Source: an uncultured Anaerolineaceae bacterium (GTDB taxonomy: Bacteria; Chloroflexota; Dehalococcoidia; Tepidiformales; Tepidiformaceae). From it: 27,093 nucleotides of DNA. The position numbers and the translations under genes are program-made. Shown here in pieces: positions 2,064 through 24,363 of the stretch (position 1 is its first letter; every line of letters starts with the position of its first letter). The stretch is from NCBI GenBank assembly GCA_964557245.1, contig CAZKZR010000001.1, forward strand, positions 1 to 27,093, in the 5' to 3' direction. The notes beneath the pieces were generated by a model. The model was not told the origin of the DNA. It did no database searches and saw only the letters and a list, made by a program, of their open reading frames with translations.

Positions 2064-3218
2064 ATGACCGAACAGCGCATCCCTTTCGTGAAAGTGCAAC
2101 TGGACGATGACGATATCGCCGCCGTCGAAGGGGTCCTGCGCAGCGGATGGCTCACCACCGCCAGCCAGGTCAAAGCGCTCGAAGAGGAGCTGTGCGCCTA
2201 CACCGGCGCGAAGTTCGTCAACGCCGTGAACTCCGCCACCGCGGCCATGCATCTTTGCCTCGCGGCGTGGGACCTCGGTCCGGGCGACGAAGTGATCACG
2301 ACGCCATACACGTTCACCGCGACTGCCAACGTGGTCCTCCACTGCGGCGCCACGCCGGTGCTGGTTGATGTCGAAGAAGGGACCGCCAACATCGATCCCG
2401 CCGCCGTGGAACGCGCGATCACTCCCCACACGAAGGTGATCCTCCCGGTGCACATCGCAGGCGAGCCGTGCGATATGGACGCCCTGAACGCGATCGCCCG
2501 CCCGCGCGGGATCAAGATCCTCGAGGACGCCGCGCACGCCATCGGCTCTATGTACCGCGGGAAGCAGATCGGCAGCGTTTCCGATGCAGCCGCCTTTAGC
2601 TTCTACGCGAACAAAACCATGACCACCGGCGAAGGCGGTGCGCTCGCCACCGACGATGCCGAACTCAGCGCCCGGGTTCGCCGGCTCACGCTCCACGGGA
2701 TGTCCCGCGATGCCTACAACCGTTACGGCGCGGGTGGCAGTTGGCGGTACGACATCGAGGAGTTCGGGTTCAAGGACAACCTGACCGATATCGCGGCCGC
2801 GCTGGGCCGCACGCAACTCGGCAAGCTCGAGGGGTTCATCGAAGAGCGCACGCGCGTGGCCCAGCGCTACTTCGCGAACCTCCGCGACGAAGAGCACATC
2901 ATCCTGCCGTTGTTCAACGAGGATAACCGCCAGCCCTGGCACCTCTTCATGATCCGGATCAAGAACGAGACATCGCCGGTCCAGCGCGATGACGTCATCC
3001 GTGAACTCGCCGAGCGCGGGATCGGCACATCGGTCCATTTCATCCCGCTCCACTATCACTCGGCGTACCAGAAGCTCGGCCGCTGGGCGAAGGGCGATTT
3101 CCCGGTGGCGGAACGCTTCTTCGAGGGCGAAATCAGCCTGCCCATGTACCCCACGATGACCAACGCGGAAGTCGATGACGTTTGTGAAGCGCTCCGAGAG
3201 ATCCTGCATCCGGCTTAG
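2064..3218 (+). CDS. DegT/DnrJ/EryC1/StrS family PLP-dependent sugar aminotransferase
   Basis: Motifs VNSATAAMHL, GDEVIT, PVHIAG, EDAAHAIG and FSFYANKTMTTGEGG (PLP-binding Lys); 384 aa. Confidence 0.96.
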   Translation: MTEQRIPFVKVQLDDDDIAAVEGVLRSGWLTTASQVKALEEELCAYTGAKFVNAVNSATAAMHLCLAAWDLGPGDEVITTPYTFTATANVVLHCGATPVLVDVEEGTANIDPAAVERAITPHTKVILPVHIAGEPCDMDALNAIARPRGIKILEDAAHAIGSMYRGKQIGSVSDAAAFSFYANKTMTTGEGGALATDDAELSARVRRLTLHGMSRDAYNRYGAGGSWRYDIEEFGFKDNLTDIAAALGRTQLGKLEGFIEERTRVAQRYFANLRDEEHIILPLFNEDNRQPWHLFMIRIKNETSPVQRDDVIRELAERGIGTSVHFIPLHYHSAYQKLGRWAKGDFPVAERFFEGEISLPMYPTMTNAEVDDVCEALREILHPA

Positions 3219-5063: not shown

Positions 5064-6197
5064 ATGCACCTGAACTCCTTCGCCCGCGCCGGGCTCCTCG
5101 CCGCCTTGCCGCTTTCGTCCCTGCTCTTTGCCTGTGGTGGCGGCGGCAGCGACAAGAAAGTCGATGCCGACGATTGGGTTGCTGACCTCTGCGATGCAGC
5201 CGCCGACTTCGATAAGGCGAGCGACAAGGCCGGGGAAGCCTTCCTGGATGCTGACTTCGATGACACCAAGGAGGCCAAGGCGGCCTTCAAGGAGAGCCTC
5301 GAAAAGCAGAAGGACGCCCAGAAGGACTTCCGGTCCGACTTCGACAAGATCGGCCAGCCCGACATCGAAGATGGCGACAAGGTGGTCGCCGCTTTCAAGG
5401 ACCAGTTCAAAGCGAACGACAAGATGACCGAGGATGTCGGCAAGGCCGTCGCCAAGATCGATGACGACGACGATTTCACCGAGGAATTCCTCAAGATCGC
5501 GGACGACTTCGATACGCCGGACTTCCGCGAAAAGATGGACGACCTCGCCGACGACAGCGATGACGTGGCGGACCTCATCGATAGCATCGATGCCGACAGC
5601 GATTGCTCCGCCGTCATCTTCGACCAGCCGGGCGCCGACGACACCACCGACGAACCGACCGCTCAGCCTTCCAAGACGACCGTCGCCAGCAAGACCACCG
5701 TCCCGACGACGACCGCGGCCAAGACCACGAACGAGAAGTGGGTTGCAGGCGTCTGCACCTCGCTCGGCGGCTGGATCAAGGACCTCGAAAACGCCAACGA
5801 CAAGCTCGATTCCACGCTCACCACAGCCAAGGACGCGCCCGCGCTCAAGGCGGCACTCGTGGAGTTCATGAAAAGTGGCCAGGCCGAGACGAAGAACATG
5901 CAGAAGGAAGTAGCGGCCTTGAAGGCCCCTGACGTGAAGAACGGCGCGGCGATCCAGCGCACGTTCAACGATGGGATGAGCCAGCTGGTCGCCGTGTTCG
6001 ATGGCCTGGTAACGGAATCCCAGAAGGTCGGCACCTCCTCGCTCGCGCAGACCACCGCGGATGTCGAGCGGCTTTCCAGCGGCATCAGCGACGCGTTCAA
6101 CGATGTCAGCGCCACCTTCGACAAACTCGACGACCTGGACACCGGCGAACTGGACAACCTGTTCGATCAGCGCCCGGAGTGCGCCGGGATCAACTAA
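5064..6197 (+). CDS. Two-domain lipoprotein, paralog D (two family domains joined by a Thr-rich linker)
   Basis: AGGAG lies 9 nt before ATG 5064. Lipobox LFAC-GG. Domain 1: KVDADDWVADLC..GQPDIEDG..SDC. Linker: KTTVASKTTVPTTTAAKTT. Domain 2: WVAGVC..APDVKNG..PEC. Confidence 0.9.
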   Translation: MHLNSFARAGLLAALPLSSLLFACGGGGSDKKVDADDWVADLCDAAADFDKASDKAGEAFLDADFDDTKEAKAAFKESLEKQKDAQKDFRSDFDKIGQPDIEDGDKVVAAFKDQFKANDKMTEDVGKAVAKIDDDDDFTEEFLKIADDFDTPDFREKMDDLADDSDDVADLIDSIDADSDCSAVIFDQPGADDTTDEPTAQPSKTTVASKTTVPTTTAAKTTNEKWVAGVCTSLGGWIKDLENANDKLDSTLTTAKDAPALKAALVEFMKSGQAETKNMQKEVAALKAPDVKNGAAIQRTFNDGMSQLVAVFDGLVTESQKVGTSSLAQTTADVERLSSGISDAFNDVSATFDKLDDLDTGELDNLFDQRPECAGIN

Positions 6198-6220
6198 CGC
6201 TGCCCCCGAACCACGCTTGC

Positions 6221-6246
6221 TGGCGCGGATGCTAGACTCCGCGCCA
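6221..6246 (+). promoter_or_regulatory. Perfect 9-bp inverted repeat enclosing an extended -10 upstream of phaC
   Basis: TGGCGCGGA-tgctagac-TCCGCGCCA; TG-C-TAGACT occupies 6230-6238. Confidence 0.5.
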
Positions 6247-6267
6247 CTAGCGATGGGAGGCTCCCCG

Positions 6268-7314
6268 ATGACGCAGGCGCCGGGACTCGAAACGGAAGCT
6301 GAACTCCTCCGCATGGCCCAGGGCCTGCGCGATGCGCTGGGCGCGCCCGCGCCGGTAGCGCTCTCCCGCCGCGTCATCGCCGGATTCCGCGGCAAGGCCC
6401 GCATGTATTACTACCCGCCGAAAGACGGCGGCCGGTTCAAGACGCCGCTCCTGCTCTTCCCCTACCTGGGCATCAGCAGGCCGTACATCTTCGACCTCCG
6501 TCCCGGTGAATCGTTCGCGGAGTTCCTCTATGAAGAGGGGATCCCGTTCTACCTCGTGGACTGGGGCATTTTCGGGCCCGAAGACCGCGAAATGGGCATG
6601 GATGACGTCATCGGAGACATGGTGCCTTCGCTGGTGCGGCAGGCCGTCGCCCACTCCGGCGCCGACGCGGTCACGCTCTTCGGCTATTGCATGGGCGTCC
6701 CCATGACCAGCTCCGCGCTCGCCTCCCAGCCGGACCTGCCGGTGAAGAACTATCTTTCCATGGTCGGTCCGATCGACTTTTCCGTCGGCGAATTTCCAAT
6801 GATGACGACCGAGGACCGCTTCGACGTGGATTCCATCGTTGAAACGTTCGACATGATGCCGGCGGAGTTCGTGCGATCCGGGTTCAAGATGCTGAACCCC
6901 ATGGGCGATATTTCTCAGGCGCAGTCGCTCCTCCAGAACGCGGCGAACCCGCAGTGGCTCATCGGCTACAAGGCGATGAACCGCTGGGCAAGCGAGTGGC
7001 TCCCCCTGCCGAAGCAGTTCTTCCGCCAGTGGGTCCGCCACTTCTACCAGGGGAATGAGCTGGTGCAGGGGAAGTTCCGCGTGCTCGGTGAAGCCGTGAA
7101 CCTGCGCGATATCACCGTCCCCGTGCTCTGCGTCGGCGCCAGCAAGGACGATATCGTCCCGGCGGACAGTGCCCGCGCCCTGGTCGAATCGGTCGGGAGT
7201 AAGGACAAGCAGTTTGTCGAACTCGAAGGCGGCCACATCTCGGTGATTGCGGGCCGCCGCGCGAAACAGGTGGTGTGGCCGGCGTTGTTGGAGTGGCTGC
7301 GAGAGCACGACTAG
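6268..7314 (+). CDS. phaC: Polyhydroxyalkanoate synthase catalytic subunit, class III/IV-like
   Basis: GGAGG lies 7 nt before ATG 6268; 348 aa. Motifs TPLLLFPYLGISRPYIFDL, LVDWG, lipase-like box GYCMG (Cys), KDDIVP (Asp) and GGHIS (His). Confidence 0.85.
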   Translation: MTQAPGLETEAELLRMAQGLRDALGAPAPVALSRRVIAGFRGKARMYYYPPKDGGRFKTPLLLFPYLGISRPYIFDLRPGESFAEFLYEEGIPFYLVDWGIFGPEDREMGMDDVIGDMVPSLVRQAVAHSGADAVTLFGYCMGVPMTSSALASQPDLPVKNYLSMVGPIDFSVGEFPMMTTEDRFDVDSIVETFDMMPAEFVRSGFKMLNPMGDISQAQSLLQNAANPQWLIGYKAMNRWASEWLPLPKQFFRQWVRHFYQGNELVQGKFRVLGEAVNLRDITVPVLCVGASKDDIVPADSARALVESVGSKDKQFVELEGGHISVIAGRRAKQVVWPALLEWLREHD

Positions 7315-7454: not shown

Positions 7455-7979
7455 CTAGTCAGCCAATTCTCCAGGCCCCCGCGTCCCACCAAGGTCCTGT
7501 CCCTGTCCCTCGACCACGTAACGGATCGCATCCTCCATGGCTTGCCGTGTGTAGAGATACCGGGTGCTGCCATGACGGGTCCAAACTCGCTGGCCCTCAT
7601 CCACCAACCCGTCTTCTCGGAGCCGGCGAGTCGACCACGCTTTGAATGCGTTCATCACCTGCTCCGGAGAGGTGTTCGCCTTAACCACCGTGTGAACGTG
7701 ATTCGTACGCACATTCATGGCGAGCAAATCCCATGAACGGTGCTCCGCGACTGACTCGATCGCCTTCGCAATGGATGATCGGGCGTCAACTGTGAACGTC
7801 ATGGACGCTGCTGATAAGCGGCGTTTCGCCTGCGCCAACCGCGATTCGCTCGGCTCGACCGATGCCGTTACCCCGGGACTGCGCTGTCGCTCGCTGGACC
7901 CACGAGCATCACCATGCAGCCACGTTCCGTACGCAGTGAACGTGATGAGGTACGTGCCAGAGTCCTGCCGCTCCGTCAC
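7455..7979 (-). mobile_element. Y1 HUH transposase, IS200-like / REP-associated tyrosine transposase (RAYT)
   Basis: Motifs YLITFTAYGTWLHGD, HUH motif NHVH, FKAWSTRRL, VWTRHGS and catalytic Tyr in AIRYVVEGQ; 174 aa. AGGAG lies 8 nt before the GTG; palindromes flank the gene. Confidence 0.85.
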
Positions 7980-7990: not shown

Positions 7991-8359
7991 CTACTTCTTC
8001 TTTTTCGTCTTCACCTTCGGTTCAGACCCGCCACCGGCGGTCTGTGCCGCGAGCAGCGCCGCCAGCGCATCGTCAATCCGGTCCATCCGCAGGAGGATTG
8101 TGTGCACCTGGTCCTGGAGGCGCTGGAACTCCACCAGCGGCACCGCCCCCACCGCCTCCACAATCGGCCCATACGCTTCGCGCGCGGCCTTCGCCATGGC
8201 GGCCCGCGCCGCCACATAGTTCTTCTCGATCTCGCCCGTCATCGCCTGGCCCTCGGGCGTGGCCGACGTAGCTTCGTACACCTGTCCCCACTGCTTCAGG
8301 AACTGGTCGCTCATCGATTTCCACTGGTTCATCAGGTCAGCAATGCCGGGCTGTGTCAT
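7991..8359 (-). CDS. Small helical protein, putative PhaE/PhaR-like PHA synthase partner or granule protein (122 aa)
   Basis: Amphipathic helices; C-terminal coiled coil VPLVEFQRLQDQVHTILLRMDRIDDAL resembles PhaE/PhaR C-termini; Lys-rich tail; close to phaC. Confidence 0.6.
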   Translation of the reverse strand: MTQPGIADLMNQWKSMSDQFLKQWGQVYEATSATPEGQAMTGEIEKNYVAARAAMAKAAREAYGPIVEAVGAVPLVEFQRLQDQVHTILLRMDRIDDALAALLAAQTAGGGSEPKVKTKKKK

Positions 8360-8365
8360 GGCCGG

Positions 8366-8371
8366 AGTATA
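8366..8371 (-). promoter_or_regulatory. -10 box TATACT, 6 nt before ATG 8359 (leaderless-type)
   Basis: The minus strand reads TATACT-ccggcc-ATG, with no SD. Confidence 0.6.
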
Positions 8372-8436
8372 GCGACGCCCATTGATCTCCGCCGCTGCCC
8401 GTGTACATTCCGCGCGATACCTCAAGGGGCTCCCAC

Positions 8437-9256: not shown

Positions 9257-11599
9257 CTACGGCACGATGACGCGGCCGCGGACCATGTCCCGGAGTGTCT
9301 CGCTCAACTGGTCATAGGCCACGATCAGCCGCTCATCGATGTCCGTGCCGCTTGTGTAGACGGCGAAGCCGATCTGCCCCGCCGGTTCGTATTCCATGAC
9401 GCCCGAGCGCCCGTAGTGGCCCCAGCGCTCGCCGTAGATACGCCCTTCTTCCCGCCAGCACGGGCAGAACGGATAGGTGCCCAACCCGGCGTACTGGAAC
9501 TCGGGACCGAGGAAGTCGGTCATCGCATCGCGCGTCGCTTCCGAGAGCAAACGGTCCGTTCCGTAGAGGGCGAGCGCCCAGGCCGCGATGTCGCCAACAG
9601 TGGAATAGATACCTGCTGACGACCAGAGCAGGCCGTGGTACTCGAACGCCGCGGTCGCCGGGCCAGTACTCGATGACGAGCGGAGAATGCCCGAACTGGA
9701 ACGCAGCGCGGCGTTGCTCTGGGGATGCGTCGAAGCCGCGGTCGGCGCGATCTCTTCGTCCATTTTGGTCCCGGTAAGTCCGAGCGGGTCCAGCAACCGT
9801 TCGTGGAGCGCGGTGGTATACGGCGTTCCTGTGACCTTCTCGATGACCAGCCCGAGCATGTAGTACCCCGGACTGGAGTAAAGAAACCCTGTACCCGGTT
9901 CGAAAGCCAGGGGAGTCCGCGACGCGGCCAGCAGCGCGTCGGCCGGCGCGATCCCGTCGGTCGCCATCAGCCCCGAACGATGTTGGATAAGCTCCCGGAC
10001 GGTGTAGTCCCCGTCGTGAGCGATCCATGGCACGTAGTTCGAAACTCGCGCGTCCAGGTCCACCTTGCCTTCTTCCACCAGCTGGAGAACGAGGGCGACC
10101 GTGAACGTCTTGGTGACGCTGGCCGTCGGGTAGACGTAATTCGACGGCAACGGCTGTCCGGTCTGGACGTTGTTTCCGGACGCTGCCTGCCACGTCGAAC
10201 CGTTCCCCATGGCGATGGCGACGGCGGTGCCATCGAGTCCGTTGCTCAAACGCCAGGCATCGAGCGCCGCCTGCAGTTCCCCGGCGCTGACCGTTGCGGG
10301 TTCGTTGGGCGCGGGCAAAACATCGGGCGAAGGCGGTTCCTCCAGGACCACCGCACTCGCCGCACGGAGCGCGATCCCGACTCCCGACGGCGGGACCGCC
10401 CGGTGCTCGGCTCGCAGGTCTCCCGTGGGCCGCAGTTCGCTCACAAGGAACGCCGCGAGCAGCGTGAAAACGCCCATCGCGGCCACGGCCGGCACCGCGA
10501 ACCGCCTCAGCACCGACTGGTCCGTAGAGATTCGCTGTGGGCCCGCCCGGGGAGTGATGTGAAGTTCCCGCCGCGCCGCGAAATCTTCTACCCATCCGAA
10601 CGCCAGCATGCAGACGAAGGTCACGGCCAGGACGATCGGGAAGGCCGCGACATCCCGCAGCCATGCGGGGTGCGGGTCGGCCCAGAGGAGTTCGTACATC
10701 ACGAAGAGGCCAGCCGCGTGCCACAGGTAGATCGTGAAGATGCGGTCGTTCACCCAGGCGACGAACCGCGCCGGACCGGGCTGCGTGGCGAGCCGGCGCA
10801 GCGGCGCTTCGAACGTCAGCGCGATGCCCAGCCAGGTAAGACCGACCAGCAAGTGGGCGGGATACGAAGCGTTGACCACCATCCCCGGCACGTCCTGGGT
10901 CGCAATCCAGGCGGTAGCCCCGATCGCGAAGACGAGCGTTCCGGCCGCCCGCACTCGCGTCCCGATCCTGCCAACCAGACCGGCGTTGTACGCGAAACCG
11001 AGCAACCAGAAGATCGAGAACGTCGCCGCATCTTCAAACTGCCACGGCACGGGGTGGCCGGCCCGGGCGCGCATTTCGAAGACAATCGCAAAGCCCAGGG
11101 GGATGCCGATCACGGCGACGGACAGGCGCCGGAACAGCCAGAGCAGCAGCGGGCTGAGGAGGATGAGCCAGGTCAGGCAGCGCAGGTACCAGAGCACCGC
11201 CCAGAAGGTGACTCCCCAGCCGGAACCCTGGGGATCCCAGATGGGGAAGATCCACCACGGCAGCTGGTCCCAGCGCATCGGCTGCCCCAGTTCCACCTTC
11301 ACCTGCGAGTGCAGCGCCATGCCCGGGACAACGACCAGGGCAAAGGCCCACAGCGGTATGAGCAGCCTTCGGAAGCGGGCTATCAACACGTGCCGCCAGG
11401 AGGCTCGTTCCAGGGAGTGGGCCATCAGCGAGCCGGCGACGAAGAACATCGCCGGCATGGAGGCGACCAGGTAAGAGAGCCACGCGAAGCCGAACGTGTG
11501 CCAGGCCAGCACCCGGATGATTGCGACCGCGCGAATCAGGTCCAGGAACTGGTTGTGCGGCTTGTTCTGTGCCGGACCTTCGGCCGTAGCGTGTTGCAT
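9257..11599 (-). CDS. Acyltransferase-3 (OafA-like, polytopic) fused to a beta-lactamase/class C-type serine hydrolase
   Basis: N-terminal FLDLIRAVAI..H, MPAMFFVAG, RFRRLLIP, LWYL and FTIYLWH with about 10 hydrophobic segments. C-terminal SxxK (ASVTK), LIQHRSG, FEPGTGFLYSS and GHYG. Confidence 0.88.
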   Translation of the reverse strand: MQHATAEGPAQNKPHNQFLDLIRAVAIIRVLAWHTFGFAWLSYLVASMPAMFFVAGSLMAHSLERASWRHVLIARFRRLLIPLWAFALVVVPGMALHSQVKVELGQPMRWDQLPWWIFPIWDPQGSGWGVTFWAVLWYLRCLTWLILLSPLLLWLFRRLSVAVIGIPLGFAIVFEMRARAGHPVPWQFEDAATFSIFWLLGFAYNAGLVGRIGTRVRAAGTLVFAIGATAWIATQDVPGMVVNASYPAHLLVGLTWLGIALTFEAPLRRLATQPGPARFVAWVNDRIFTIYLWHAAGLFVMYELLWADPHPAWLRDVAAFPIVLAVTFVCMLAFGWVEDFAARRELHITPRAGPQRISTDQSVLRRFAVPAVAAMGVFTLLAAFLVSELRPTGDLRAEHRAVPPSGVGIALRAASAVVLEEPPSPDVLPAPNEPATVSAGELQAALDAWRLSNGLDGTAVAIAMGNGSTWQAASGNNVQTGQPLPSNYVYPTASVTKTFTVALVLQLVEEGKVDLDARVSNYVPWIAHDGDYTVRELIQHRSGLMATDGIAPADALLAASRTPLAFEPGTGFLYSSPGYYMLGLVIEKVTGTPYTTALHERLLDPLGLTGTKMDEEIAPTAASTHPQSNAALRSSSGILRSSSSTGPATAAFEYHGLLWSSAGIYSTVGDIAAWALALYGTDRLLSEATRDAMTDFLGPEFQYAGLGTYPFCPCWREEGRIYGERWGHYGRSGVMEYEPAGQIGFAVYTSGTDIDERLIVAYDQLSETLRDMVRGRVIVP

Positions 11600-11758
11600 C
11601 GCGATCGAGCGTAGGGTTGCGGTAGCCCGAGGAATCAGGGTCGAACGTTCCCCACACCGAGCCCGAAAGGACCACGGCCGGGCACTTACCTCAGCCTTAC
11701 ACTGACCTTTGGATCATCAACGAATCGAGGTGGTGGCCTTATCCTCACGCGCTTTGGG

Positions 11759-12796
11759 TTGATCCTGGCCTCCGGGGCATGGCTGTTGCTTGCCCTGAGC
11801 TGTACCGGCCCGGCGCCGGCCGGGCAGAGTTCCGCGAGCATCGTGACCCTGGCCCAGGACCGCGTCCAGATGGACGCAGGTCTTGATTCGCCGGAGTTGC
11901 TGGGCTTTTCGCTTGCGCCGACCTGGTCGGCCGCTCCGCAGCAGCGACTTCGCGGCGGGCGGAGCGCATGCGCCACTGCCTACCCCTCGGGTTACACAGC
12001 GGGCAAGACGGCCCTGCGAACGCTGACGTCCGGCTCGCTCAAACGTACCTACCGCGTGCACATTCCCGCGCAAACGAAAAACGATCGGCCGCTCGCTGTT
12101 GTCCTGAACTTCCACGGGCGCAGCGGCACCGGCATCGATCAGGAGATCACGTCGGGTCTGCTTCCGGTCAGCGACCGCGAGGGCTTCATCCTCGTTTCGC
12201 CCGACGGGACTGGCACCCCCATGGGCTGGTCTGCCGGCGCCACGCCGGCCAACAGCACCGATGACGTCCGGTTCGTGTCGGACATCCTCGACACGCTCCA
12301 GCGTGAGCTCTGCGTGGACACGTCGCGGGTGTACGCGACCGGCTTCTCCAACGGGGCGTTCATGACCTCGCGGCTCGCCTGCGCGATGCCCGACCGCATC
12401 GCGGCAGTCGTCGCTGTCGGCGGTGTCGATTTCCCGGAGGGAAAGTGCCGCTCCACCGTGCCGGTGCTCGCCATCCATGGCACCGCCGATGAGGTCGTGC
12501 CGATCGATGGCGGGATTGTGCGCGAGTGGCACTACCAGGGCGCGAACGCTTCGATCGAAGACTGGGCCGCAAACAACGGCTGCCGTCCAGTTGCCTCTAC
12601 CGTGACGCTCGCTGCCGGCGTAACCGTCGATGCCTTCGCCGACTGCTCCGCTCCCACCGCGATCATCCGCATCGCGGGCGCCGGTCATCTCTGGCCAGGC
12701 GCCCCCGGCTACTCGGCGGGGACCCCCGGCGCAAACGTCGCCGGCGCGAACATCGTCTGGCGTTTCCTGTCGCAGGGCGTGGTCGGCGGCAATTAG
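11759..12796 (+). CDS. Secreted or lipoprotein esterase, PHB depolymerase / LpqC family (start uncertain)
   Basis: Motifs RTYRVHIP, VLNFHG, GFILVSPDG, DDVRFV, GFSNG (nucleophile), IHGTAD and GAGHLWPG; signal-like N-terminus ending LALSC. Confidence 0.88.
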   Translation: MILASGAWLLLALSCTGPAPAGQSSASIVTLAQDRVQMDAGLDSPELLGFSLAPTWSAAPQQRLRGGRSACATAYPSGYTAGKTALRTLTSGSLKRTYRVHIPAQTKNDRPLAVVLNFHGRSGTGIDQEITSGLLPVSDREGFILVSPDGTGTPMGWSAGATPANSTDDVRFVSDILDTLQRELCVDTSRVYATGFSNGAFMTSRLACAMPDRIAAVVAVGGVDFPEGKCRSTVPVLAIHGTADEVVPIDGGIVREWHYQGANASIEDWAANNGCRPVASTVTLAAGVTVDAFADCSAPTAIIRIAGAGHLWPGAPGYSAGTPGANVAGANIVWRFLSQGVVGGN

Positions 12797-16945: not shown

Positions 16946-19774
16946 TCAGGCGGCCTTCTGCAATTGCCTCGGCGCGAGCTCGATCACCTGCGCCGGGGCC
17001 TTGTGGGATTCGCGGTACCGCTGCGCGAACCCGCCGACGAAGAACGCGAGTGCCATCAGTTCGGCGCCCTCTTCGATGACGGTGATCGTCCACGCGTGCG
17101 ACGCGAATCCGTCGATTGCGACCGTCAGTACCGCGAACGGCGCCGCGCCGAGGAAGTACAGGATGGCCTTCGGGTGTTCGAACACCTGCTTCCAGAGCAG
17201 CGCCGAGATAGCCATGCCGGTCAGCCCGTAGACCGCGACGATGAAGTCGCTCGGGCGGTGGAACCCGAACGGGTGGTCGAACGGAGTCGTCGCCGAAATC
17301 AGGCCGCCGAGCTTGCCGTGAATATCCGGCGTGGCATCGAACGCGAGAATCGCGAACGCCAGGCCCCAGGCGCCCCAGAGGTCGCGGTAGATGGCCCGTC
17401 CGCCGTCCTTCCGCCAGGCGGAGATGCCCATCGTGCCCGCCACCAGCATCATTGCCGACGACAGGAAGGTGACGGGCCCGAAGTCCCGGAACAGGTCCGG
17501 TTCGGCGCTGCGGGGGTCGATGGCCGCGGAACCGGCCAGCGCGGTGGCGGCGAACACTCCCGTGAATACGACGAGCGCAGGGGTGAGGTACCGCGTGCGG
17601 GCCAGGCGGCCGGCAAACGCCTCGAGGGCCCTCGCGGCCGGGACAATCCCTTTGCTCGCGGTCTCCGAGCGGCCAGCGGCTTCGCGAACCCGCAGCACGG
17701 AGGCGCCGGCCAGGAACACCCCCGCCGCGAGCGCAGCCGCGGATGCTCCACTGACGGCGGCCGCTTCCAGCCCGAAGGCGGCGCCGGCGGCGATCGTCGC
17801 GACGGCAAGGACGGGCGATGACGCTCGCGAAGCCAGGAATTCGTGGCGGAACATCCAGGCGGTTGCGGCCGCGGTCAGCGCGTAGGCGGCGGCCGCCAGC
17901 ATCGTCGTTTCACTCTCGCCGGGGACCATCGGGATGTTGGTGTCCTCGAACAGGCCCGCGATGTTCGCGCTGATGTTGAACGCAAGGTCGATGCCCGCGC
18001 CGAGAGCGCCAACGCCGGCGATCAGCCAGAGGAAGCTCCCGCCCTGGTCGGCCGCCGAGGCGGATTGCCCGGTCTTCCAGAAGGCGCGGAAGGCGAGCAG
18101 CGCCGCGAGACCCGAGACCGCCAGCGCGGCGTACGCCACCCGGTCCATTGCGGTGCCCGAAAGCGACCCGCCGGCGAGCACCGCCGTCCCGGCGATGGCT
18201 CCAACTGCCGCCACCGAGACCAGCCCGGCCGCGTTCGGCTGGCGCAGCTTTGCTGAAGCGGCCGGGAGCGCCATCCAGCGGCTCAGCGCACCGAGGTGCA
18301 GCCGCTCATGCAGGCGGAACGGGATGTGGCGAAGGGCCTGGTCGAACAGGACCGCGCGCAGTGCCCGCTGCGATCGGAACGGCCGCGCCGCGAGGTAGGC
18401 AAAAGCGCCGAATCCCGGGATGGCGCCGAGGACGAACACCGGCGCAGAGTGCACCGCGCGAGCTTCGCGCCTGGCGTCCGCGTTGCGCAGTCCGGACCAT
18501 TCGCCCTTCAGCCGGGCGGCCAGCGTCCAGCCGCTGCGGGCGATGGAACCCAGCGGGAAGCGCAGGGGCACACTCATGGCCAGGTGGGCGCCGAGGCCAG
18601 CGGTCGCAGCGGTCATCTCGGGAGCGGCCAGCGAAGCGCGCGCTGCTTCGGCCTCGGCCGGTTGCAGCAGGCCTTCGTTGACCCAGTTGTCGATGCCGGC
18701 GGTCGCGATGTCCGTCGCCATCCGCTCGCCGCCCGAAGACAGCCGCTTCACTCCGCGGAACCAGCCCGGCACGTCGATGATTGCCGTGGCGATGCGCAGC
18801 GCTTTGCTCACGTAGCGCCGCTCGCTGGCGTGCCATGCGCGCTGAGCAATGCCGTAGTTGGCGGCGGAGATGCGCAGGCTGTTCGCGCTGGCGTCGCCGA
18901 GTTGTGCCTCAATCTGGGGCAGGTGTCGCTCGAGGTAGGCGTTCAGCCGGCCCACGTTGATCTCATCGAACGAGGGATAGAGCCCGGCCCGCAACGAGCG
19001 CCAGAGCACTCGCGGCCGCAGGAACGGGGACACCAGGTTCGATTCGAGGTCGATGATCCGGTACGCGCCGTCCGTGCGTTCGATGAGGTTGCCGATGGCG
19101 CGCGGGTTGTACGAAGCCACCTGCCACGGCGGCAGCCCGGCCTCTTCGAAGTGGCCCTGGAGCCGGTTCAGGAACGTCCGCGCGGTTTTCGTATCCCGCG
19201 GGAGCGTACCGCGAACTAACTCGGTGACCAGGCTGTAGCGCCCGTCGTCGCCGAGCGTGACATCCAGCACCGGTGAGACGTGGTTCTCGCCGAACCAGTA
19301 CTCGGTGAGCAATCCCGCGATCGCCCGCCGCTCAGTGGCCGCCGTGAATGCGGCTTCGTTGGTGGTGTAGGGGAAGGCGGACTGGAACGAGAGCGCGTAG
19401 AGCAGTTTCACGGGCCTGGTCGGCCGGTACACCTTCGTCGCCGTGCCCCTGTCGTAGTCCAGCACCACATCACTCGAAATCGAGCCGGTCAGCACGATCC
19501 CGGTCTCCGGCACTGATGTGGCCGGGGCAACGGCCTCAGCGGTGGCGGCGCCACGCCGGAAAGCGAGCACCAGCCCCGCGCCGCCGAACGCGACCGCAAG
19601 GCTCAGCGCGAACGCGGCCGCCCAGGCCGGCTGCGCGGCTTGTGTTGCCTCGAATAGCGCTGCGGCGGCGAAGAAGATGCCGACGGCGATCAGTGACCCG
19701 GCAGCGGCAAGTCGGCCGCTTCCGTGAGTGTCAGCCGTACCGAAGTCCTGGTGTGCAGGCGTCCAGGTGGACAT
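16946..19774 (-). CDS. 942-aa membrane protein: 2 TM, protein-kinase-like domain, multi-TM C-terminal region
   Basis: GGGGAG SD. Kinase-like elements ATKVYR, HVSPVLDV..SLVTELVRG, GNLI and RIIDLE, followed by many hydrophobic helices. Confidence 0.8.
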   Translation of the reverse strand: MSTWTPAHQDFGTADTHGSGRLAAAGSLIAVGIFFAAAALFEATQAAQPAWAAAFALSLAVAFGGAGLVLAFRRGAATAEAVAPATSVPETGIVLTGSISSDVVLDYDRGTATKVYRPTRPVKLLYALSFQSAFPYTTNEAAFTAATERRAIAGLLTEYWFGENHVSPVLDVTLGDDGRYSLVTELVRGTLPRDTKTARTFLNRLQGHFEEAGLPPWQVASYNPRAIGNLIERTDGAYRIIDLESNLVSPFLRPRVLWRSLRAGLYPSFDEINVGRLNAYLERHLPQIEAQLGDASANSLRISAANYGIAQRAWHASERRYVSKALRIATAIIDVPGWFRGVKRLSSGGERMATDIATAGIDNWVNEGLLQPAEAEAARASLAAPEMTAATAGLGAHLAMSVPLRFPLGSIARSGWTLAARLKGEWSGLRNADARREARAVHSAPVFVLGAIPGFGAFAYLAARPFRSQRALRAVLFDQALRHIPFRLHERLHLGALSRWMALPAASAKLRQPNAAGLVSVAAVGAIAGTAVLAGGSLSGTAMDRVAYAALAVSGLAALLAFRAFWKTGQSASAADQGGSFLWLIAGVGALGAGIDLAFNISANIAGLFEDTNIPMVPGESETTMLAAAAYALTAAATAWMFRHEFLASRASSPVLAVATIAAGAAFGLEAAAVSGASAAALAAGVFLAGASVLRVREAAGRSETASKGIVPAARALEAFAGRLARTRYLTPALVVFTGVFAATALAGSAAIDPRSAEPDLFRDFGPVTFLSSAMMLVAGTMGISAWRKDGGRAIYRDLWGAWGLAFAILAFDATPDIHGKLGGLISATTPFDHPFGFHRPSDFIVAVYGLTGMAISALLWKQVFEHPKAILYFLGAAPFAVLTVAIDGFASHAWTITVIEEGAELMALAFFVGGFAQRYRESHKAPAQVIELAPRQLQKAA

Positions 19775-19943: not shown

Positions 19944-20894
19944 TCAGGCCGGGAGCAACGCCCGCAGCCGCTCATCCAGCTCCTTCAGCGGCCGGCCCTT
20001 GCCGAAACGCTCGAGCACGGACCGCCTGCCCGACTGGTTCGTCTTCAGTTCACCTGCCCGGTGCTTTTCCAGCAGACCGGCGATCGCCGCTCGAACCTGT
20101 TCCAGCCCTTCGGCCTTGATGCACCCCGGCATGGCGAACGTCCAGATGACGTATCTGCCCCGCGAAAGCGCCTCAACCGCGATGAACGACTGGCCGTCGT
20201 GGCTCGTAAGCCGCACCACCACCGTGGTCTCGCGGTACAGCGCGTCCATGTCCTCTACCCAATCCCGGGCCTCCAGGTTGGACGGCAGCGGCTGGGGCAA
20301 CGTCCCGGCCGGGGACGGAATGAGCGTGAACGGCACCTCAGGAAACTCGCGTGGCAGCTGCAACAGCGTTTCGCCGTCGAATACCTCGCGGTCGTACGAA
20401 TCGACGGGGTAGTAGAGCAACACGCGGAATTCTTCGGGCAAAGGCGGCGCCGGAGGCACATGGATAGGAATCGGGAGCGAGACGTACTCGGAGATGACGC
20501 CAATTGTCCGCAGCTCTTCCACTAACCAGGGCGCGTCGCACCAGTGCGCCGGCCGTTCGGCCACGCGCAGTGACACGTTGTGCCGGCGGTGCTCGTCGAT
20601 GGCGATCTGCACGTCGGTGCCAACCCAGTGGATGACCGTGGGCTTCCTTCGCAACCGCAACAGGCGGTCCTGCGGTGACTTGCGGTCAATCCGGCTGCCG
20701 ATCAGGTAGACGATGTCGGCGCGCGCGGCGGCCGCCGCCACTTTCGCCCAGCCGCCGGCGCTCCTTCCAGGGTGGGGAAGGTATTCCGCCTTCCAGCCCA
20801 GGTCTCCCAGGTCCCTGGCCAGCAGCTTCCCGAAATAGGGCAGCCCCAGGATCAGGATGCGGCCACGGCGCTCCCCGTCGCCCCCAGGGTTCAT
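19944..20894 (-). CDS. Putative glycosyltransferase (GT-B, GT4-like, divergent)
   Basis: Motifs RILILG, HWVGTD, SHDGQSFIAVEALSRGRYVI (GT4 S..E.....EA..G.PVI-like); start overlaps the acyltransferase stop. Confidence 0.7.
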   Translation of the reverse strand: MNPGGDGERRGRILILGLPYFGKLLARDLGDLGWKAEYLPHPGRSAGGWAKVAAAAARADIVYLIGSRIDRKSPQDRLLRLRRKPTVIHWVGTDVQIAIDEHRRHNVSLRVAERPAHWCDAPWLVEELRTIGVISEYVSLPIPIHVPPAPPLPEEFRVLLYYPVDSYDREVFDGETLLQLPREFPEVPFTLIPSPAGTLPQPLPSNLEARDWVEDMDALYRETTVVVRLTSHDGQSFIAVEALSRGRYVIWTFAMPGCIKAEGLEQVRAAIAGLLEKHRAGELKTNQSGRRSVLERFGKGRPLKELDERLRALLPA

Positions 20895-21487
20895 TGCGGC
20901 GGCGTCTCACCGGCAACGCGTGCCCGTGGCGCGACGAGCGTCGCCCCGGGCGCCACATCGCGGTCCACAAGGGCATGCGCGCCGATCGTCGCGCGCTGGC
21001 CGACCGTCACACCGTGCAGCACCGTCGCGCCTAGCCCCAGGTACGCCCCGGAACCGATCGTGACCGGAGCCTGCTGGCGCGGGTGCCGCTCCTTCAGCGG
21101 CCCCGATCCAACATCGATGTGGGTGATGACGCTGCAGCGCATCGAAAGCGTGGCTTCAGACTCGATGACCACGCCATCCGCGAGGTCGATCAGGACATCG
21201 GTGCCGAGATGGACCCGATCGCCAATAGTGAGGTTCCTGAAGTCCCCATCCGCGTTCACGATGTGGATCGGCCCATGGATGGAAACGTCGCGGCCAACGG
21301 TGGCGCCGAACTCCCGGAGGATCTCCACGTGGGCGTTGGGCGTAGTTCGCAGTTCGATGGCGATCCCCTCGATCCCGTCCCGCAGATAGCGCGCCCGGCG
21401 GCGCGATCGGCCGAAGATCCCGAGGGATCGACGGACGGGGCGGGCGGCCGGCGCAATAGCGTTCCGGAAACGGGATAATGCCGTCAG
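20891..21487 (-). CDS. Hexapeptide-repeat (LbH) acyltransferase; the track ORF starts at 21328, likely true start CTG 21487
   Basis: Repeats VGRDVSI, IGDRVHL, IESEATL, IGSGAYLGLGATVLHGVTVGQRATIGAHALV. The frame is open to 21520, and GGAGG lies 8 nt before CTG 21487. Confidence 0.88.
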   Translation of the reverse strand: MTALSRFRNAIAPAARPVRRSLGIFGRSRRRARYLRDGIEGIAIELRTTPNAHVEILREFGATVGRDVSIHGPIHIVNADGDFRNLTIGDRVHLGTDVLIDLADGVVIESEATLSMRCSVITHIDVGSGPLKERHPRQQAPVTIGSGAYLGLGATVLHGVTVGQRATIGAHALVDRDVAPGATLVAPRARVAGETPPQ

Positions 21488-23421: not shown

Positions 23422-24363
23422 CTAACGCCAGAGCACCGCGACCAGTTTCTCCAGTGCCTCTCCCGCCCGCGGCCCCGGCGCGCGGAGGAAGAGCGAGGTA
23501 TCGAGCACGGCGACGCGGTCCTGTTTGACGGCGGGCACTCCTGCCCAGGCTCGGTCGGCTTTGATCTGCGCATCAAGCCCGCCCTGCCCCGAAGGGAGGA
23601 TGAGCACGGCCTCCGGAGCGAGCGCGGCGGCGGCGCCGACATCAATGACCCCAAAACCCGGTATTGGCCCGCCATCCGCGACGGAACCAAGCACGTTGGT
23701 TGCTCCGAGGTATTCCAGCAGGCTCCCGATATAGGTCGCCGAGCCGCCCCCGAAGACGTCCCGTCCGCCTCCGGTCAACACCAGCACCCTGGGCGCGCCG
23801 CCGCGGGCCGCGGCCACACCGCGGGCGGCCTCCGTGCGCGCTTCGAGTTGATCTCGCGCGGCCGCTGCCTCCGGCCCATGGTCCGTCGCCTCTCCCATCG
23901 CCGTCAGGGCCGCCAGAACCTCGGAGAACGAGTTCGCCTTCAGCATGTAGACCGGGCGGCTGAAGCGGTCGAAATCCCGTGTCCGGCCGGCCTGGTAGGC
24001 CGCGTCAGCCAGCACAAGGTCCGGCGCGAGCGCCTCGATGGCGTTGAAGTCGGGAGAAATGGCAGAACCGACAAGCTTCGCCGCGGGCGCCACATCCGCC
24101 GGCGTGTCGGAGGTGCGGCCCAGTACCTCCAGACCGATGGCCACGGCGTAATCGGCCGCGGCCGGGCTCAAGGCCACAACGGTCCGCACTTCCTCGGGCA
24201 GCGAAACGCTCCGCCCCGTCATGTCTGTGACTTGCCGGCCCCCGTTGGTGCCGCTTGCGGTGACCGTGGCCGTCGGCGAAGGCCTTGGCGGAACGGCCGG
24301 CGCCGCTTTCCCGCAACCGGCGAAGACGCCGGCGAGCAGCGCCACCGCCAGCCACCGTTTCAC
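23422..24363 (-). CDS. ABC transporter substrate-binding lipoprotein (BtuF / iron-siderophore, helical-backbone type)
   Basis: Lipobox FAGC; motifs VTDMTGRSV, TVVALSP, PDFNAIEALAPDLVL, GATNV and RAPGPR. GTGA overlap with the cofC stop. Confidence 0.9.
   Translation of the reverse strand: MKRWLAVALLAGVFAGCGKAAPAVPPRPSPTATVTASGTNGGRQVTDMTGRSVSLPEEVRTVVALSPAAADYAVAIGLEVLGRTSDTPADVAPAAKLVGSAISPDFNAIEALAPDLVLADAAYQAGRTRDFDRFSRPVYMLKANSFSEVLAALTAMGEATDHGPEAAAARDQLEARTEAARGVAAARGGAPRVLVLTGGGRDVFGGGSATYIGSLLEYLGATNVLGSVADGGPIPGFGVIDVGAAAALAPEAVLILPSGQGGLDAQIKADRAWAGVPAVKQDRVAVLDTSLFLRAPGPRAGEALEKLVAVLWR

What the first reader, a model, noticed from the sequence alone, without database searches (positions are those of the whole stretch)
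9257..11599. AT3 acyltransferase fused to a beta-lactamase-fold serine hydrolase instead of SGNH
Seen: one 780-aa ORF has a polytopic AT3 domain, a further TM and Pro-rich linker, then an SxxK (SVTK), Y-S-S, H-Y-G domain. Established: fused AT3 proteins such as OatA and OafA use a C-terminal SGNH domain to relay the acyl group to an extracellular glycan. Inference: here a penicillin-recognising-protein fold may be the relay transacylase or an editing esterase, which would be an alternative wall or glycan acylation module.
Basis: partly seen in the sequence, partly recalled or inferred. Interest (0 to 1): 0.62.

Follow-up and report, generated by a model that had tools for sequence, protein, structure and literature searches.

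The report
Membrane acyltransferase fused to PBP-fold enzyme
This gene joins a membrane acyl-transfer domain to an outward-facing penicillin-binding-protein-like serine enzyme. It belongs to a large, unstudied family that probably adds acyl groups to a secreted or wall sugar polymer, in place of the usual SGNH partner.

Summary
ORF 9257-11599 (minus strand, 780 aa) has a full-length Acyl_transf_3 (AT3) domain, an eleventh TM helix, a Pro-rich linker and a Beta-lactamase-fold (PF00144) domain carrying SVTK, YSS and HYG.

The fusion is not an artefact. About 100 clusters at 50% identity share the architecture, in Chloroflexota and Actinomycetota, including cultured Actinoplanes and Kineococcus.

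The 10+1 TM layout, the positive-inside tally (17 vs 5 K+R) and a relative with a C-terminal LysM domain place the hydrolase outside the cell.

The C-domain is closest to S12 D-peptidases (R61, alkaline D-peptidase). Only the nucleophile set (Ser494, Lys497, Tyr574) is invariant. The positions that read D-Ala-D-Ala or beta-lactams are degenerate, as in the teichoic-acid esterase DltE.

Two new links point to a glycan substrate:
- An actinobacterial subclade fuses the same module to a BcsA-like processive GT2 synthase.
- In the Chloroflexota branch the gene is paired divergently with a secreted CE1/PHB-depolymerase-type esterase.

Best reading (about 0.45): an AT3 to PBP-fold acyl relay onto an extracytoplasmic polysaccharide, with the esterase as de-acylase. 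Main rivals: the C-domain is an editing esterase, or an independent DD-peptidase.

I class it as a new variant of a known kind. No biochemistry exists for it.

The parts
9257..11599 (-). Whole 780-aa ORF (P0001): AT3 domain, TM11, linker and S12/beta-lactamase-fold domain
10607..11551 (-). AT3 (Acyl_transf_3, PF01757) domain, residues 17-331, ten hydrophobic helices
   Evidence: Pfam hit; hydropathy scan; AF2 helices
11498..11533 (-). TM1 motif R23-X10-H34 (RAVAIIRVLAWH), the proposed acyl-CoA-binding and catalytic motif of AT3 enzymes
   Evidence: R23, R29, W33 and H34 are invariant in 52 fused proteins. The motif is defined in PMC7448272.
10436..10504 (-). Eleventh TM helix (residues 366-388), which carries the chain back to the outside
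   Evidence: The closest AT3-only relatives end right after TM10 and lack this helix.
10280..10435 (-). Linker, residues 389-440: a disordered stretch, the conserved 'VPPSGVG...' helix (404-415) and a Pro-rich segment
9260..10279 (-). Extracytoplasmic S12 / beta-lactamase-fold serine enzyme domain, residues 441-780 (Pfam 454-754)
10109..10120 (-). Motif 1, S494-V-T-K497 (nucleophile Ser and general-base Lys)
   Evidence: S494, T496 and K497 are invariant in 52 sequences
9872..9880 (-). Motif 2, Y574-S-S576. Tyr and Ser575 are invariant. The third position (Asn161 in R61) is variable (S/T/R/N/A).
9410..9418 (-). Motif 3, H728-Y-G730, corresponding to HTG of R61. Only the preceding G727 is invariant. 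Position 728 is H, F or Y (H most often; L at the aligned position in one distant member), and position 729 is variable.
9458..9466 (-). C712-P-C714: the only cysteines of the outer domain, conserved in at least 90% of members and also in the triple fusions. Role unknown.
11759..12796 (+). Divergently transcribed partner gene: a 345-aa secreted (possibly lipoprotein) alpha/beta-hydrolase esterase of the PHB-depolymerase / feruloyl-esterase (CE1-like) type. Predicted triad S197/D244/H310.
   Evidence: Family hits. Adjacent and divergent in the window and in L001, L002, L003, L006, L008 and L009; distant homologues lie next to the fused gene in L017, L021 and L039.
11600..11758 (.). 159-bp divergent intergenic region shared by the fused gene and the esterase gene
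   Evidence: No sigma-70-like promoter and no Rfam match.

Best explanation
The ORF encodes a genuine bifunctional envelope enzyme. An N-in, 10-helix AT3 (TmAT-type) acyl-CoA-dependent transmembrane acyltransferase is joined through an eleventh helix and a linker to an extracytoplasmic S12 (R61/alkaline-D-peptidase-like) beta-lactamase-fold serine enzyme. Proposed mechanism: (1) The AT3 pore binds a cytoplasmic acyl-CoA (R23, R75, R78) and presents the thioester at the outer face near H34. (2) Ser494 of the PBP-fold domain, activated by Lys497 and Tyr574, takes the acyl group as an acyl-enzyme. (3) The acyl group is passed to a hydroxyl of an exported or wall polysaccharide instead of to water. 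This is the role the SGNH domain plays in OafA, OafB and OatA. (4) The divergently encoded secreted CE1-like esterase removes the acyl groups again, in the manner of Ape1. Shown here: the architecture, the family, the conserved residues, the outside topology (by sequence rules and homology) and the links to a GT2 synthase and an esterase. Inferred: the acyl relay through Ser494, the identity of the donor and acceptor, and the role of the esterase.
For: The AT3 domain is full length and keeps the residues shown to be essential in OafA: R-X10-H, RxxR, FFxxG, the YLWH helix and GWxED after TM10 (PMC7448272).

Several results place the C-domain outside. There are eleven TM helices with 17.1 K+R in predicted inside loops against 5.0 in outside loops, averaged over 52 proteins. 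The C-domain is acidic and holds only two Cys, both conserved. The closest AT3-only relatives stop after TM10. P0036 carries a C-terminal LysM domain.

Ser494, Lys497 and Tyr574 are invariant. The R61 positions that read acyl-D-Ala-D-Ala (Asn161, Thr299) are not kept. DltE shows the same pattern, with the catalytic S-X-X-K motif kept but only the Tyr of motif 2 and the Gly of motif 3 kept, and it is an esterase on a wall polymer, not a carboxypeptidase (PMC10241514).

Beta-lactamase-fold acyltransferases are among the structural neighbours: EstCE1 (7atl) and macrolactin acyltransferase (6kjh) (PMC7894173).

Rosetta-stone evidence: at least 45 clusters at 90% identity of 1230-1350-aa proteins fuse a BcsA-like processive GT2 synthase (D,D,D,QxxRW; best PDB match BcsA, 2.6e-31) to the same AT3-TM11-S12 module. 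The match to P0001 is collinear over residues 1-714 and includes the CPC motif. These genes sit on Mb-scale contigs. They form one clade nested in the actinobacterial two-domain branch.

The only recurrent neighbour is a secreted carbohydrate-esterase-type hydrolase.
Against: There is no biochemical data for any member. AT3-only enzymes acylate acceptors without a relay domain, so the C-domain need not be a relay. The OatA Tyr206/OafB Tyr194 shuttle residue in loop 5-6 is not conserved here; the loop reads W186-Q-x-x-D190. AF2 gives a pTM of only 0.59 with a disordered linker, so the model does not establish a defined AT3/S12 interface, and no coordinates were available to measure the H34-S494 distance. 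The GT2 fusion lies in the actinobacterial branch, at 27% identity to the window protein, so applying it to the Chloroflexota branch is an extrapolation. The closest solved relatives by sequence are D-stereospecific peptidases, not esterases. Gene context other than the esterase is not conserved.
Confidence: 0.45

Rival explanations
1. Editing or de-acylating esterase. The AT3 domain acylates the glycan directly, as AT3-only enzymes do. The tethered PBP-fold domain hydrolyses acyl (or D-aminoacyl) esters from the same polymer, tuning or proof-reading the modification in the way DltE and FmtA do for D-Ala-teichoic acids.
For: The motif pattern is that of DltE: SxxK, Tyr and Gly kept, the rest degenerate. 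FmtA and DltE are R61-like folds that act as esterases on wall polymers, and dltE sits in the operon of a transmembrane acylation pathway. FmtA and Flp appear among the sequence hits. AT3-only enzymes need no relay.
Against: A separate secreted esterase is already the conserved partner in the Chloroflexota branch, which makes a second de-acylase redundant. Fusing a synthase, an acylating domain and a de-acylating domain in one chain would be a futile arrangement unless regulated.
Confidence: 0.25
2. Independent DD-peptidase. The C-domain is a true R61-type DD-carboxypeptidase, endopeptidase or transpeptidase that trims peptidoglycan stem peptides. It is anchored beside an AT3 domain that O-acetylates peptidoglycan, giving two separate wall-maturation activities in one protein.
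For: The best sequence and fold matches are R61 DD-peptidase, alkaline D-peptidase and D-amidohydrolases. The SVTK motif is identical to that of R61. One relative has a peptidoglycan-binding LysM domain.
Against: Asn161 and Thr299 of R61 are not conserved, and His298 only partly. By gapless extension of the alignment, Arg285 of R61 would be Tyr or Phe here. Scores against the PBP4B, AmpH and class C NCBIfam models are far below cut-off. Fusion to a BcsA-like glucan synthase points to a polysaccharide, not a peptide.
Confidence: 0.12
3. The AT3 domain does not transfer acyl groups here. It serves as an anchor, channel or transporter, as was once proposed for VanT. The outer PBP-fold domain would then be a D-amino-acid amide/peptide hydrolase or a ligand sensor in the style of BlaR1.
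For: VanT shows that AT3 domains can be fused to enzymes of D-amino-acid metabolism with an unclear AT3 role. Two-component genes lie near the fused gene in some loci.
Against: All catalytic hallmarks of AT3 are invariant across two phyla, which is not expected for a passive anchor. The two-component neighbours are not consistently present. There is no cytoplasmic output domain.
Confidence: 0.08
4. The fusion is an assembly, frameshift or read-through artefact of two adjacent genes.
For: None found.
Against: The same uninterrupted architecture, with a conserved TM11 and linker, occurs in about 100 clusters at 50% identity, in isolate genomes and on Mb-scale contigs.
Confidence: 0.01

Closest known systems
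AT3-SGNH fused O-acetyltransferases (OafA/OafB of Salmonella, OatA of Staphylococcus aureus)
   Same: A 10-TM AT3 domain with R/K-X10-H and RxxR, an extra eleventh helix, a linker and an extracytoplasmic serine-nucleophile domain. The gene stands alone rather than in a biosynthetic cluster.
   Different: The outer domain has the S12/beta-lactamase fold (SxxK, Tyr) instead of the SGNH fold (Ser-His-Asp). The loop 5-6 Tyr shuttle is not conserved. The AT3 domain belongs to a different subfamily, whose nearest relatives are actinobacterial AT3-only proteins.
Dlt pathway with DltE, and FmtA (R61-like D-Ala esterases acting on teichoic acids)
   Same: A PBP-fold enzyme with intact SxxK and Tyr but degenerate motifs 2 and 3, linked genetically (DltE) to a transmembrane acyl-transfer pathway and acting on a wall polymer ester.
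   Different: In those systems the membrane transferase is an MBOAT (DltB), the donor is a carrier protein, and the PBP-fold protein is a separate hydrolase. Here it is covalently fused to an AT3 domain.
Streptomyces R61 DD-peptidase / Bacillus alkaline D-peptidase (MEROPS S12)
   Same: Best sequence and fold matches (profile E 3e-37 and 9e-47; Foldseek probability 1.0). Identical SVTK. Tyr in motif 2 and an HxG-like motif 3.
   Different: Asn161 and Thr299 are not kept, and Arg285 probably is not either. The C-terminal third shows no detectable sequence match. The family has its own CPC motif. The domain is membrane-tethered to an AT3 domain.
Exopolysaccharide acylation systems coupled to GT2 synthases (Wss acetylated cellulose, AlgI/J/F/X, IcaA with the AT3 protein IcaC)
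   Same: A processive GT2 synthase plus a transmembrane acyltransferase plus an outer serine-hydrolase-fold partner, modifying a polymer as it emerges. The triple-fusion relatives put all three in one chain. The Wss and Alg comparison is from general knowledge.
   Different: Known systems use MBOAT with SGNH/AlgX-like partners, or AT3 alone (IcaC). None is known to use a PBP-fold partner. The window's own gene lacks the GT2 domain.
ClbP (colibactin-maturing S12 peptidase with TM helices)
   Same: A periplasmic S12 domain anchored by its own TM helices. It is a structural neighbour.
   Different: ClbP has three C-terminal TM helices that are not an AT3 domain, and it cleaves an N-acyl-D-Asn prodrug motif.
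VanT (AT3 fused to serine racemase)
   Same: Another non-SGNH fusion of an AT3 domain.
   Different: The VanT partner domain is cytoplasmic and PLP-dependent. Here the partner is outside and is a serine acyl-enzyme catalyst.

Membership tests
Acyl_transf_3 (AT3, PF01757; TmAT superfamily) | Full-length match to the Pfam model above the gathering score | tested here: met
   72.4 bits vs cut-off 31; profile positions 2-325 of 326
Acyl_transf_3 (AT3, PF01757; TmAT superfamily) | R/K-X10-H motif in TM1 and RxxR before TM3 (essential in OafA, OafB and Oac) | tested here: met
   R23...H34 and R75xxR78 are invariant in 52 family members. Motifs as defined in PMC7448272.
Acyl_transf_3 (AT3, PF01757; TmAT superfamily) | Ten transmembrane helices with N and C termini inside | tested here: inconclusive
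   The hydropathy scan gives 10 segments and the positive-inside tally is 17 vs 5. DSSP on the AF2 model merges TM4 and TM5 into one helix, 136-179. No experimental topology exists.
Acyl_transf_3 (AT3, PF01757; TmAT superfamily) | Acyl-CoA-dependent acyl transfer | not testable with these tools
   Needs a biochemical assay
AT3-SGNH fused acyltransferases (OafA/OatA type) | Eleventh TM helix plus linker placing a C-terminal domain outside | tested here: met
   TM 366-388 and linker 389-440. AT3-only relatives lack this helix.
AT3-SGNH fused acyltransferases (OafA/OatA type) | C-terminal SGNH/GDSL domain with a Ser-His-Asp triad | tested here: not met
   No SGNH family hit; the C-domain is PF00144
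AT3-SGNH fused acyltransferases (OafA/OatA type) | Periplasmic Tyr in loop 5-6 (OatA Y206 / OafB Y194) proposed as the acetyl shuttle | tested here: not met
   Loop 5-6 reads P-V-P-W186-Q-F-E-D190 with no conserved Tyr
S12 DD-peptidase / penicillin-binding proteins (R61 type) | Motif 1, SxxK | tested here: met
   S494-V-T-K497 is invariant
S12 DD-peptidase / penicillin-binding proteins (R61 type) | Motif 2, Y-x-N | tested here: not met
   Tyr574 is invariant but the Asn position is S/T/R/N/A
S12 DD-peptidase / penicillin-binding proteins (R61 type) | Motif 3, K/H-T/S-G | tested here: not met
   The window has H-Y-G. Across the family the first position is H, F or Y (L in one distant member) and the second is Y/L/N/V, with Thr in one distant member (HTG). 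Only the Gly before it (G727) is invariant.
S12 DD-peptidase / penicillin-binding proteins (R61 type) | Arg285-type carboxylate anchor; penicillin binding; DD-peptidase activity | tested here: inconclusive
   A gapless extension of the HMM alignment puts Tyr/Phe709 at the Arg285 position. No residue-level structural alignment was available, and the activities need assays.
Class C beta-lactamase | Score at or above the NCBIfam class C model cut-off | tested here: not met
   49.6 bits vs cut-off 415
Beta-lactamase-fold esterases/acyltransferases (family VIII EstB/EstCE1, macrolactin acyltransferase) and DltE/FmtA-type esterases | SxxK and catalytic Tyr kept, with motifs 2 and 3 otherwise degenerate | tested here: met
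   Pattern seen. It matches the descriptions in PMC10241514 and PMC4752606. 7atl and 6kjh are among the fold neighbours.
Beta-lactamase-fold esterases/acyltransferases (family VIII EstB/EstCE1, macrolactin acyltransferase) and DltE/FmtA-type esterases | Phylogenetic placement inside one of these families; ester or acyl-transfer activity | not tested
   No tree with these families was built. The S12 peptidases score higher.

The most novel reading that the evidence does not exclude
The PBP/beta-lactamase fold would be a third, unrecognised class of extracytoplasmic acyl-relay partner for transmembrane acyltransferases, beside the SGNH and AlgX-type domains. Ser494 would take an acyl group straight from the CoA thioester presented by the AT3 pore and esterify a nascent polysaccharide. 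The GT2-AT3-PBP triple fusions of Acidimicrobiia would then be single-chain machines that synthesise, export and acylate an undescribed acylated beta-glucan. The invariant CPC pair would act as a redox or metal switch on the outer domain.
Probability: 0.33. Interest if true: 0.78.

Novelty: new variant of a known kind. Interest (0 to 1): 0.62.

Why it matters
Envelope glycan acylation controls lysozyme and phage resistance, biofilm matrix properties and surface charge. Its current paradigm is a membrane acyltransferase (AT3 or MBOAT) working with an SGNH-type outer partner. A large family in two monoderm phyla that swaps in a penicillin-binding-protein fold would widen that paradigm. It would give PBP-fold enzymes a new physiological role as glycan acyltransferases or esterases. 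It would also warn against annotating such genes as 'serine hydrolase', 'beta-lactamase' or 'DD-carboxypeptidase'. The triple fusion to a cellulose-synthase-like enzyme predicts an unknown acylated exopolysaccharide in Acidimicrobiia. Cultured hosts (Actinoplanes, Kineococcus) make the hypothesis directly testable.

Tried and rejected
- Artefact hypothesis: rejected by conservation of the architecture.
- Class C beta-lactamase, AmpH or PBP4B identity: rejected. All NCBIfam scores are far below cut-off.
- NCBIfam scan of the AT3 part alone: no hit.
- Conserved operon: not found. All-vs-all clustering of flanking ORFs from 29 loci gave only the esterase, plus loosely recurring two-component genes. 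The immediate neighbours are heterogeneous: thiolase with a ChsH2-like OB protein, acetate kinase, ADP-forming acyl-CoA synthetase, SDR, luciferase-like, EF4 and others.
- Split-gene (Rosetta) test in AT3-only Streptomyces and Micromonospora loci: no adjacent beta-lactamase-fold gene.
- Residue-level alignment of the motif-3 region to R61: the profile alignment stops at G707, and the last 115 residues alone find nothing in the PDB.
- Inter-domain geometry from AlphaFold: not obtainable. No coordinates were available, pTM is 0.59 and the linker is disordered.
- Rfam scan and promoter/terminator scans of the locus: nothing.
- Literature: AT3 reviews and the TmAT paper list only AT3-only, AT3-SGNH, AT3-racemase and NRF-AT3 architectures. 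Searches pairing PF01757 with PF00144, and AT3 terms with beta-lactamase, found no description of this fusion.
- Whole-genome searches for a GT2 synthase in the window's own genome were impossible because the genome search was shut (notice).
Full report
**1. Observation**

The minus-strand ORF 9257-11599 is open, starts with ATG and encodes 780 residues. Pfam finds a full-length Acyl_transf_3 domain at residues 17-331 (profile 2-325 of 326, E 4e-20). It also finds a Beta-lactamase (PF00144) domain at residues 454-754 (E 1e-49). There is no SGNH hit.

Between the two domains lie a strongly hydrophobic helix (366-388) and a Pro-rich linker. NCBIfam gives only far-sub-threshold hits, for example class C beta-lactamase at 49.6 bits against a cut-off of 415.

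**2. The fusion is real and forms a family**

- A word-indexed search of 5.8 billion proteins returned 45 cluster representatives with the same PF01757 + PF00144 pair. They are 742-883 aa long and 98% to 28% identical.
- An exhaustive profile search of 1.84 billion 50%-identity representatives lists roughly 100 full-length fused proteins among the best 150.
- A scan of one genome per GTDB species finds full-length copies in Chloroflexota MAGs: Anaerolineaceae, Thermoflexaceae, Dehalococcoidia and Tepidiformaceae, at 49-82% identity.
- The same scan finds copies in Actinomycetota, including isolate genomes of Actinoplanes spp. and Kineococcus sp., at 30-34% identity.
- One Propionibacteriaceae locus has two tandem copies.

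An assembly or read-through artefact is therefore excluded. The window itself is evidently from a Chloroflexota genome. Its closest locus, L001, is an 'uncultured Anaerolineaceae' MAG with shared flanking genes.

**3. The membrane half**

Alignments of 26 and 52 fused proteins show these features invariant or nearly so:
- R23-X10-H34 in TM1
- M-F-F-V-A-G-S in TM2
- R75-x-x-R78
- a conserved outer loop 3-4 (W116..P119..D122-P-x-G-S..W128)
- N243
- I-Y-L-W-H in TM9
- G335-W-x-E-D...R344 after TM10

R/K-X10-H, RxxR, the FFxISG-like motif and the acidic residue after TM10 are the features shown by mutagenesis to be essential in OafA and OafB (PMC7448272). They are interpreted as the acyl-CoA site and the catalytic His in the OafB model (PMC9833829). 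The AT3 domain therefore looks catalytically competent. One difference is that the Tyr in loop 5-6 proposed as the acetyl shuttle in OatA and OafB is not conserved. That loop reads W186-Q-x-x-D190.

**4. Topology**

The hydropathy scan gives ten helices in the AT3 domain plus an eleventh. Under the N-in model, inside loops carry on average 17.1 K+R and outside loops 5.0 across 52 proteins. The C-domain is acidic (22 K+R against 37 D+E) and contains only two cysteines.

The nearest AT3-only relatives, from Streptomyces, Arthrobacter and others at about 34% identity, end right after the GWVED motif and have no eleventh helix. This mirrors the known rule that TM11 appears when an outer domain is fused (PMC7448272, PMC9558356). 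One relative (P0036) adds a C-terminal LysM domain, which is an extracytoplasmic peptidoglycan-binding module.

These are sequence-based inferences and there is no experimental topology. One caveat: DSSP on the AlphaFold model merges my TM4 and TM5 into one long helix.

**5. The outer half**

By sequence, the closest solved proteins are alkaline D-peptidase 4y7p (profile E 9e-47), the S12 D-amidohydrolase 3wwx and the Streptomyces R61 DD-peptidase (3e-37). SurE, D-amino-acid amidase, LACTB, Flp, ClbP, FmtA and EstB follow.

The AlphaFold model has mean pLDDT 85.9 and pTM 0.59. TM11 has low confidence and the linker 390-404 is disordered. Foldseek ranks the same S12 enzymes first. It also lists beta-lactamase-fold acyltransferases: EstCE1 (7atl) and macrolactin acyltransferase (6kjh).

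Across 52 family members:
- S494, T496, K497, H540, Y574, S575 and G727 are invariant.
- The residue matching R61 Asn161 varies (S/T/R/N/A).
- His728 is replaced by Phe or Tyr in some members.
- The residue matching R61 Thr299 is not conserved.

The profile alignment to R61 ends at G705-L-G707, which matches G281-L-G283 of R61. Extending it without gaps would place Tyr or Phe709 at R61 Arg285, the carboxylate anchor. I rate this as probable, not shown. The R61 residue numbers beyond the printed alignment are from my recollection of the R61 sequence.

This pattern matches what is described for DltE. That protein was annotated as a DD-carboxypeptidase but is a D-Ala esterase on lipoteichoic acid. 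It keeps the S-X-X-K motif unchanged, only the catalytic Tyr of motif 2 and the Gly of motif 3 are kept, and Arg285 is replaced by Tyr (PMC10241514). FmtA is similar (PMC4752606). The acyl-enzyme chemistry is thus preserved while the D-Ala-D-Ala and beta-lactam recognition features are not.

A family hallmark with no explanation is C712-P-C714. These are the only two Cys of the domain. They sit in the strand before the HYG strand and are conserved in at least 90% of members and in the triple fusions.

**6. What it acts on: two new links**

(a) Fusion to a glycan synthase. Scanning longer family members showed that P0223 (1260 aa) and P0216 carry an N-terminal processive GT2 glycosyltransferase in front of the AT3-TM11-S12 module. 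A search with P0223 found at least 45 clusters at 90% identity of such triple fusions. They are 1230-1350 aa long and down to 49% identical, from Acidimicrobiia, Ilumatobacteraceae and other Actinomycetota. JGI names them 'cellulose synthase (UDP-forming)'.
- The GT2 part has the D, D, D, QxxRW signature, and its best solved relatives are BcsA cellulose synthases (2.6e-31).
- P0001 aligns collinearly with P0223 over residues 1-714, including R-X10-H, YLWH, SxTK and CPC.
- The genes sit on 1.4- and 2.4-Mb contigs.
- In a maximum-likelihood tree the triple fusions form one clade (SH-aLRT 100) nested within the actinobacterial two-domain proteins. The window protein lies in the separate Chloroflexota clade.

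A processive synthase fused to the module is strong Rosetta-stone evidence that the module modifies an exported polysaccharide. Applying this to the window's branch is an inference.

(b) A conserved esterase neighbour. Flanking genes are otherwise unconserved. The exception is a 345-aa secreted esterase encoded divergently 160 bp upstream. It is alpha/beta-hydrolase, possibly a lipoprotein.
- It recurs in the same position in L001, L002, L003, L006, L008 and L009, even though the other neighbours differ.
- Distant homologues adjoin the fused gene in three actinobacterial loci.
- It matches feruloyl esterases (9j07, 5e-27) and the PHB-depolymerase esterase family, just under the NCBIfam type-1 scl-PHA depolymerase cut-off (141.9 vs 150).
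- Its predicted triad is S197/D244/H310.

A secreted carbohydrate-esterase-type enzyme beside an acyltransferase recalls the pairing of acetyltransferase and Ape1 esterase in peptidoglycan O-acetylation clusters. That comparison is from general knowledge.

**7. Most likely mechanism**

I favour a relay, with confidence about 0.45:
1. The AT3 pore presents an acyl-CoA thioester at the outer face.
2. Ser494 is acylated.
3. The acyl group is passed to a hydroxyl of a polysaccharide.
4. The neighbouring esterase reverses the mark.

This is chemically natural. PBP-fold enzymes work through acyl-serine intermediates and transfer to nucleophiles other than water. R61 is a transpeptidase and accepts ester and thioester donors (general knowledge). 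[quoted passage not shown]

Steps 1-4 are inferred. Only the parts list and its conservation are shown.

The main rival (0.25) is that the AT3 domain acylates directly, as AT3-only enzymes do, and the PBP-fold domain is an editing esterase like DltE or FmtA. An independent DD-peptidase (0.12) is disfavoured by the degenerate recognition residues and by the synthase fusion. A non-catalytic AT3 anchor or sensor arrangement (0.08) is disfavoured by the invariant AT3 catalytic residues.

**8. Novelty**

Public annotation pipelines already show the domain pair. JGI calls it 'CubicO group peptidase / OafA/YrhL' and NCBI calls it 'serine hydrolase'. The architecture is therefore not unseen.

However, the AT3 reviews and the TmAT superfamily paper list only AT3-only, AT3-SGNH, AT3-racemase (VanT) and NRF-AT3 architectures. 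Full-text searches found no description of an AT3-beta-lactamase fusion.

Earlier first-stage notes of this scan flagged the same fusion in other genomes, without follow-up. They agree with the recurrence shown here but add no independent evidence.

I class it as a new variant of a known kind: transmembrane acyltransferase plus outer serine-enzyme partner. Interest is 0.62, for three reasons. It is a sizeable, testable family. It would extend the envelope-acylation paradigm. The triple fusion predicts an unknown acylated glucan.

Noticed in passing
P0223, P0270-P0316; loci L081:8001-11747 and L082:8001-11711: Triple-fusion proteins of 1230-1350 aa: a BcsA-like processive GT2 synthase, an AT3 domain and a beta-lactamase-fold domain. 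There are at least 45 clusters, in Acidimicrobiia, Ilumatobacteraceae and other Actinomycetota, and they are uncharacterised. Both loci examined share an upstream membrane-anchored ORF of 330-378 aa with no Pfam hit (41% identical to each other).
   Followed up: partly
P0323 (Actinomycetospora sp. TBRC 11914, 1236 aa): A related single-chain design: a chitin-synthase-like GT2 domain, an AT3 domain and a polysaccharide deacetylase (PF01522), according to precomputed Pfam hits.
   Followed up: no
window 9458-9466 (-): An invariant Cys-Pro-Cys in the outer domain, and the only cysteines there. Its role is open: disulfide, metal site or catalytic.
   Followed up: partly
window 7455-7979 (-): A 174-aa IS200/Y1-transposase-like (REP-associated type) ORF. 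It sits between a PHB_depo_C/alpha-beta-hydrolase gene (6061-7314 +) and a small Lys-tailed ORF (7991-8425 -).
   Followed up: no
window 16946-19774 (-): A 942-aa ORF with high GC3 (0.86) and no Pfam or NCBIfam hit.
   Followed up: no
window 2064-3218 (+), 20891-21328 (-), 25979-27091 (-): Scattered surface-glycan genes in the window: a DegT/EryC1 sugar aminotransferase, a hexapeptide acyltransferase and a Wzy_C (O-antigen ligase-like) membrane protein. None is conserved next to the fused gene elsewhere.
   Followed up: partly
window 24360-25942 (-): The F420 biosynthesis genes cofC and cofD, consistent with a Chloroflexota or Actinomycetota origin.
   Followed up: no
L014:7599-12909: Two tandem paralogues of the AT3-beta-lactamase gene in a Propionibacteriaceae MAG.
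   Followed up: partly
L020:10219-11535: In Kineococcus sp. SYSU DK003 an acetate kinase gene overlaps the 3' end of the fused gene. In L009 an ADP-forming acyl-CoA synthetase lies two genes away. In L023 and L028 a thiolase with a ChsH2-like OB protein lies upstream. This is a loose acyl-CoA theme and may be chance.
   Followed up: partly
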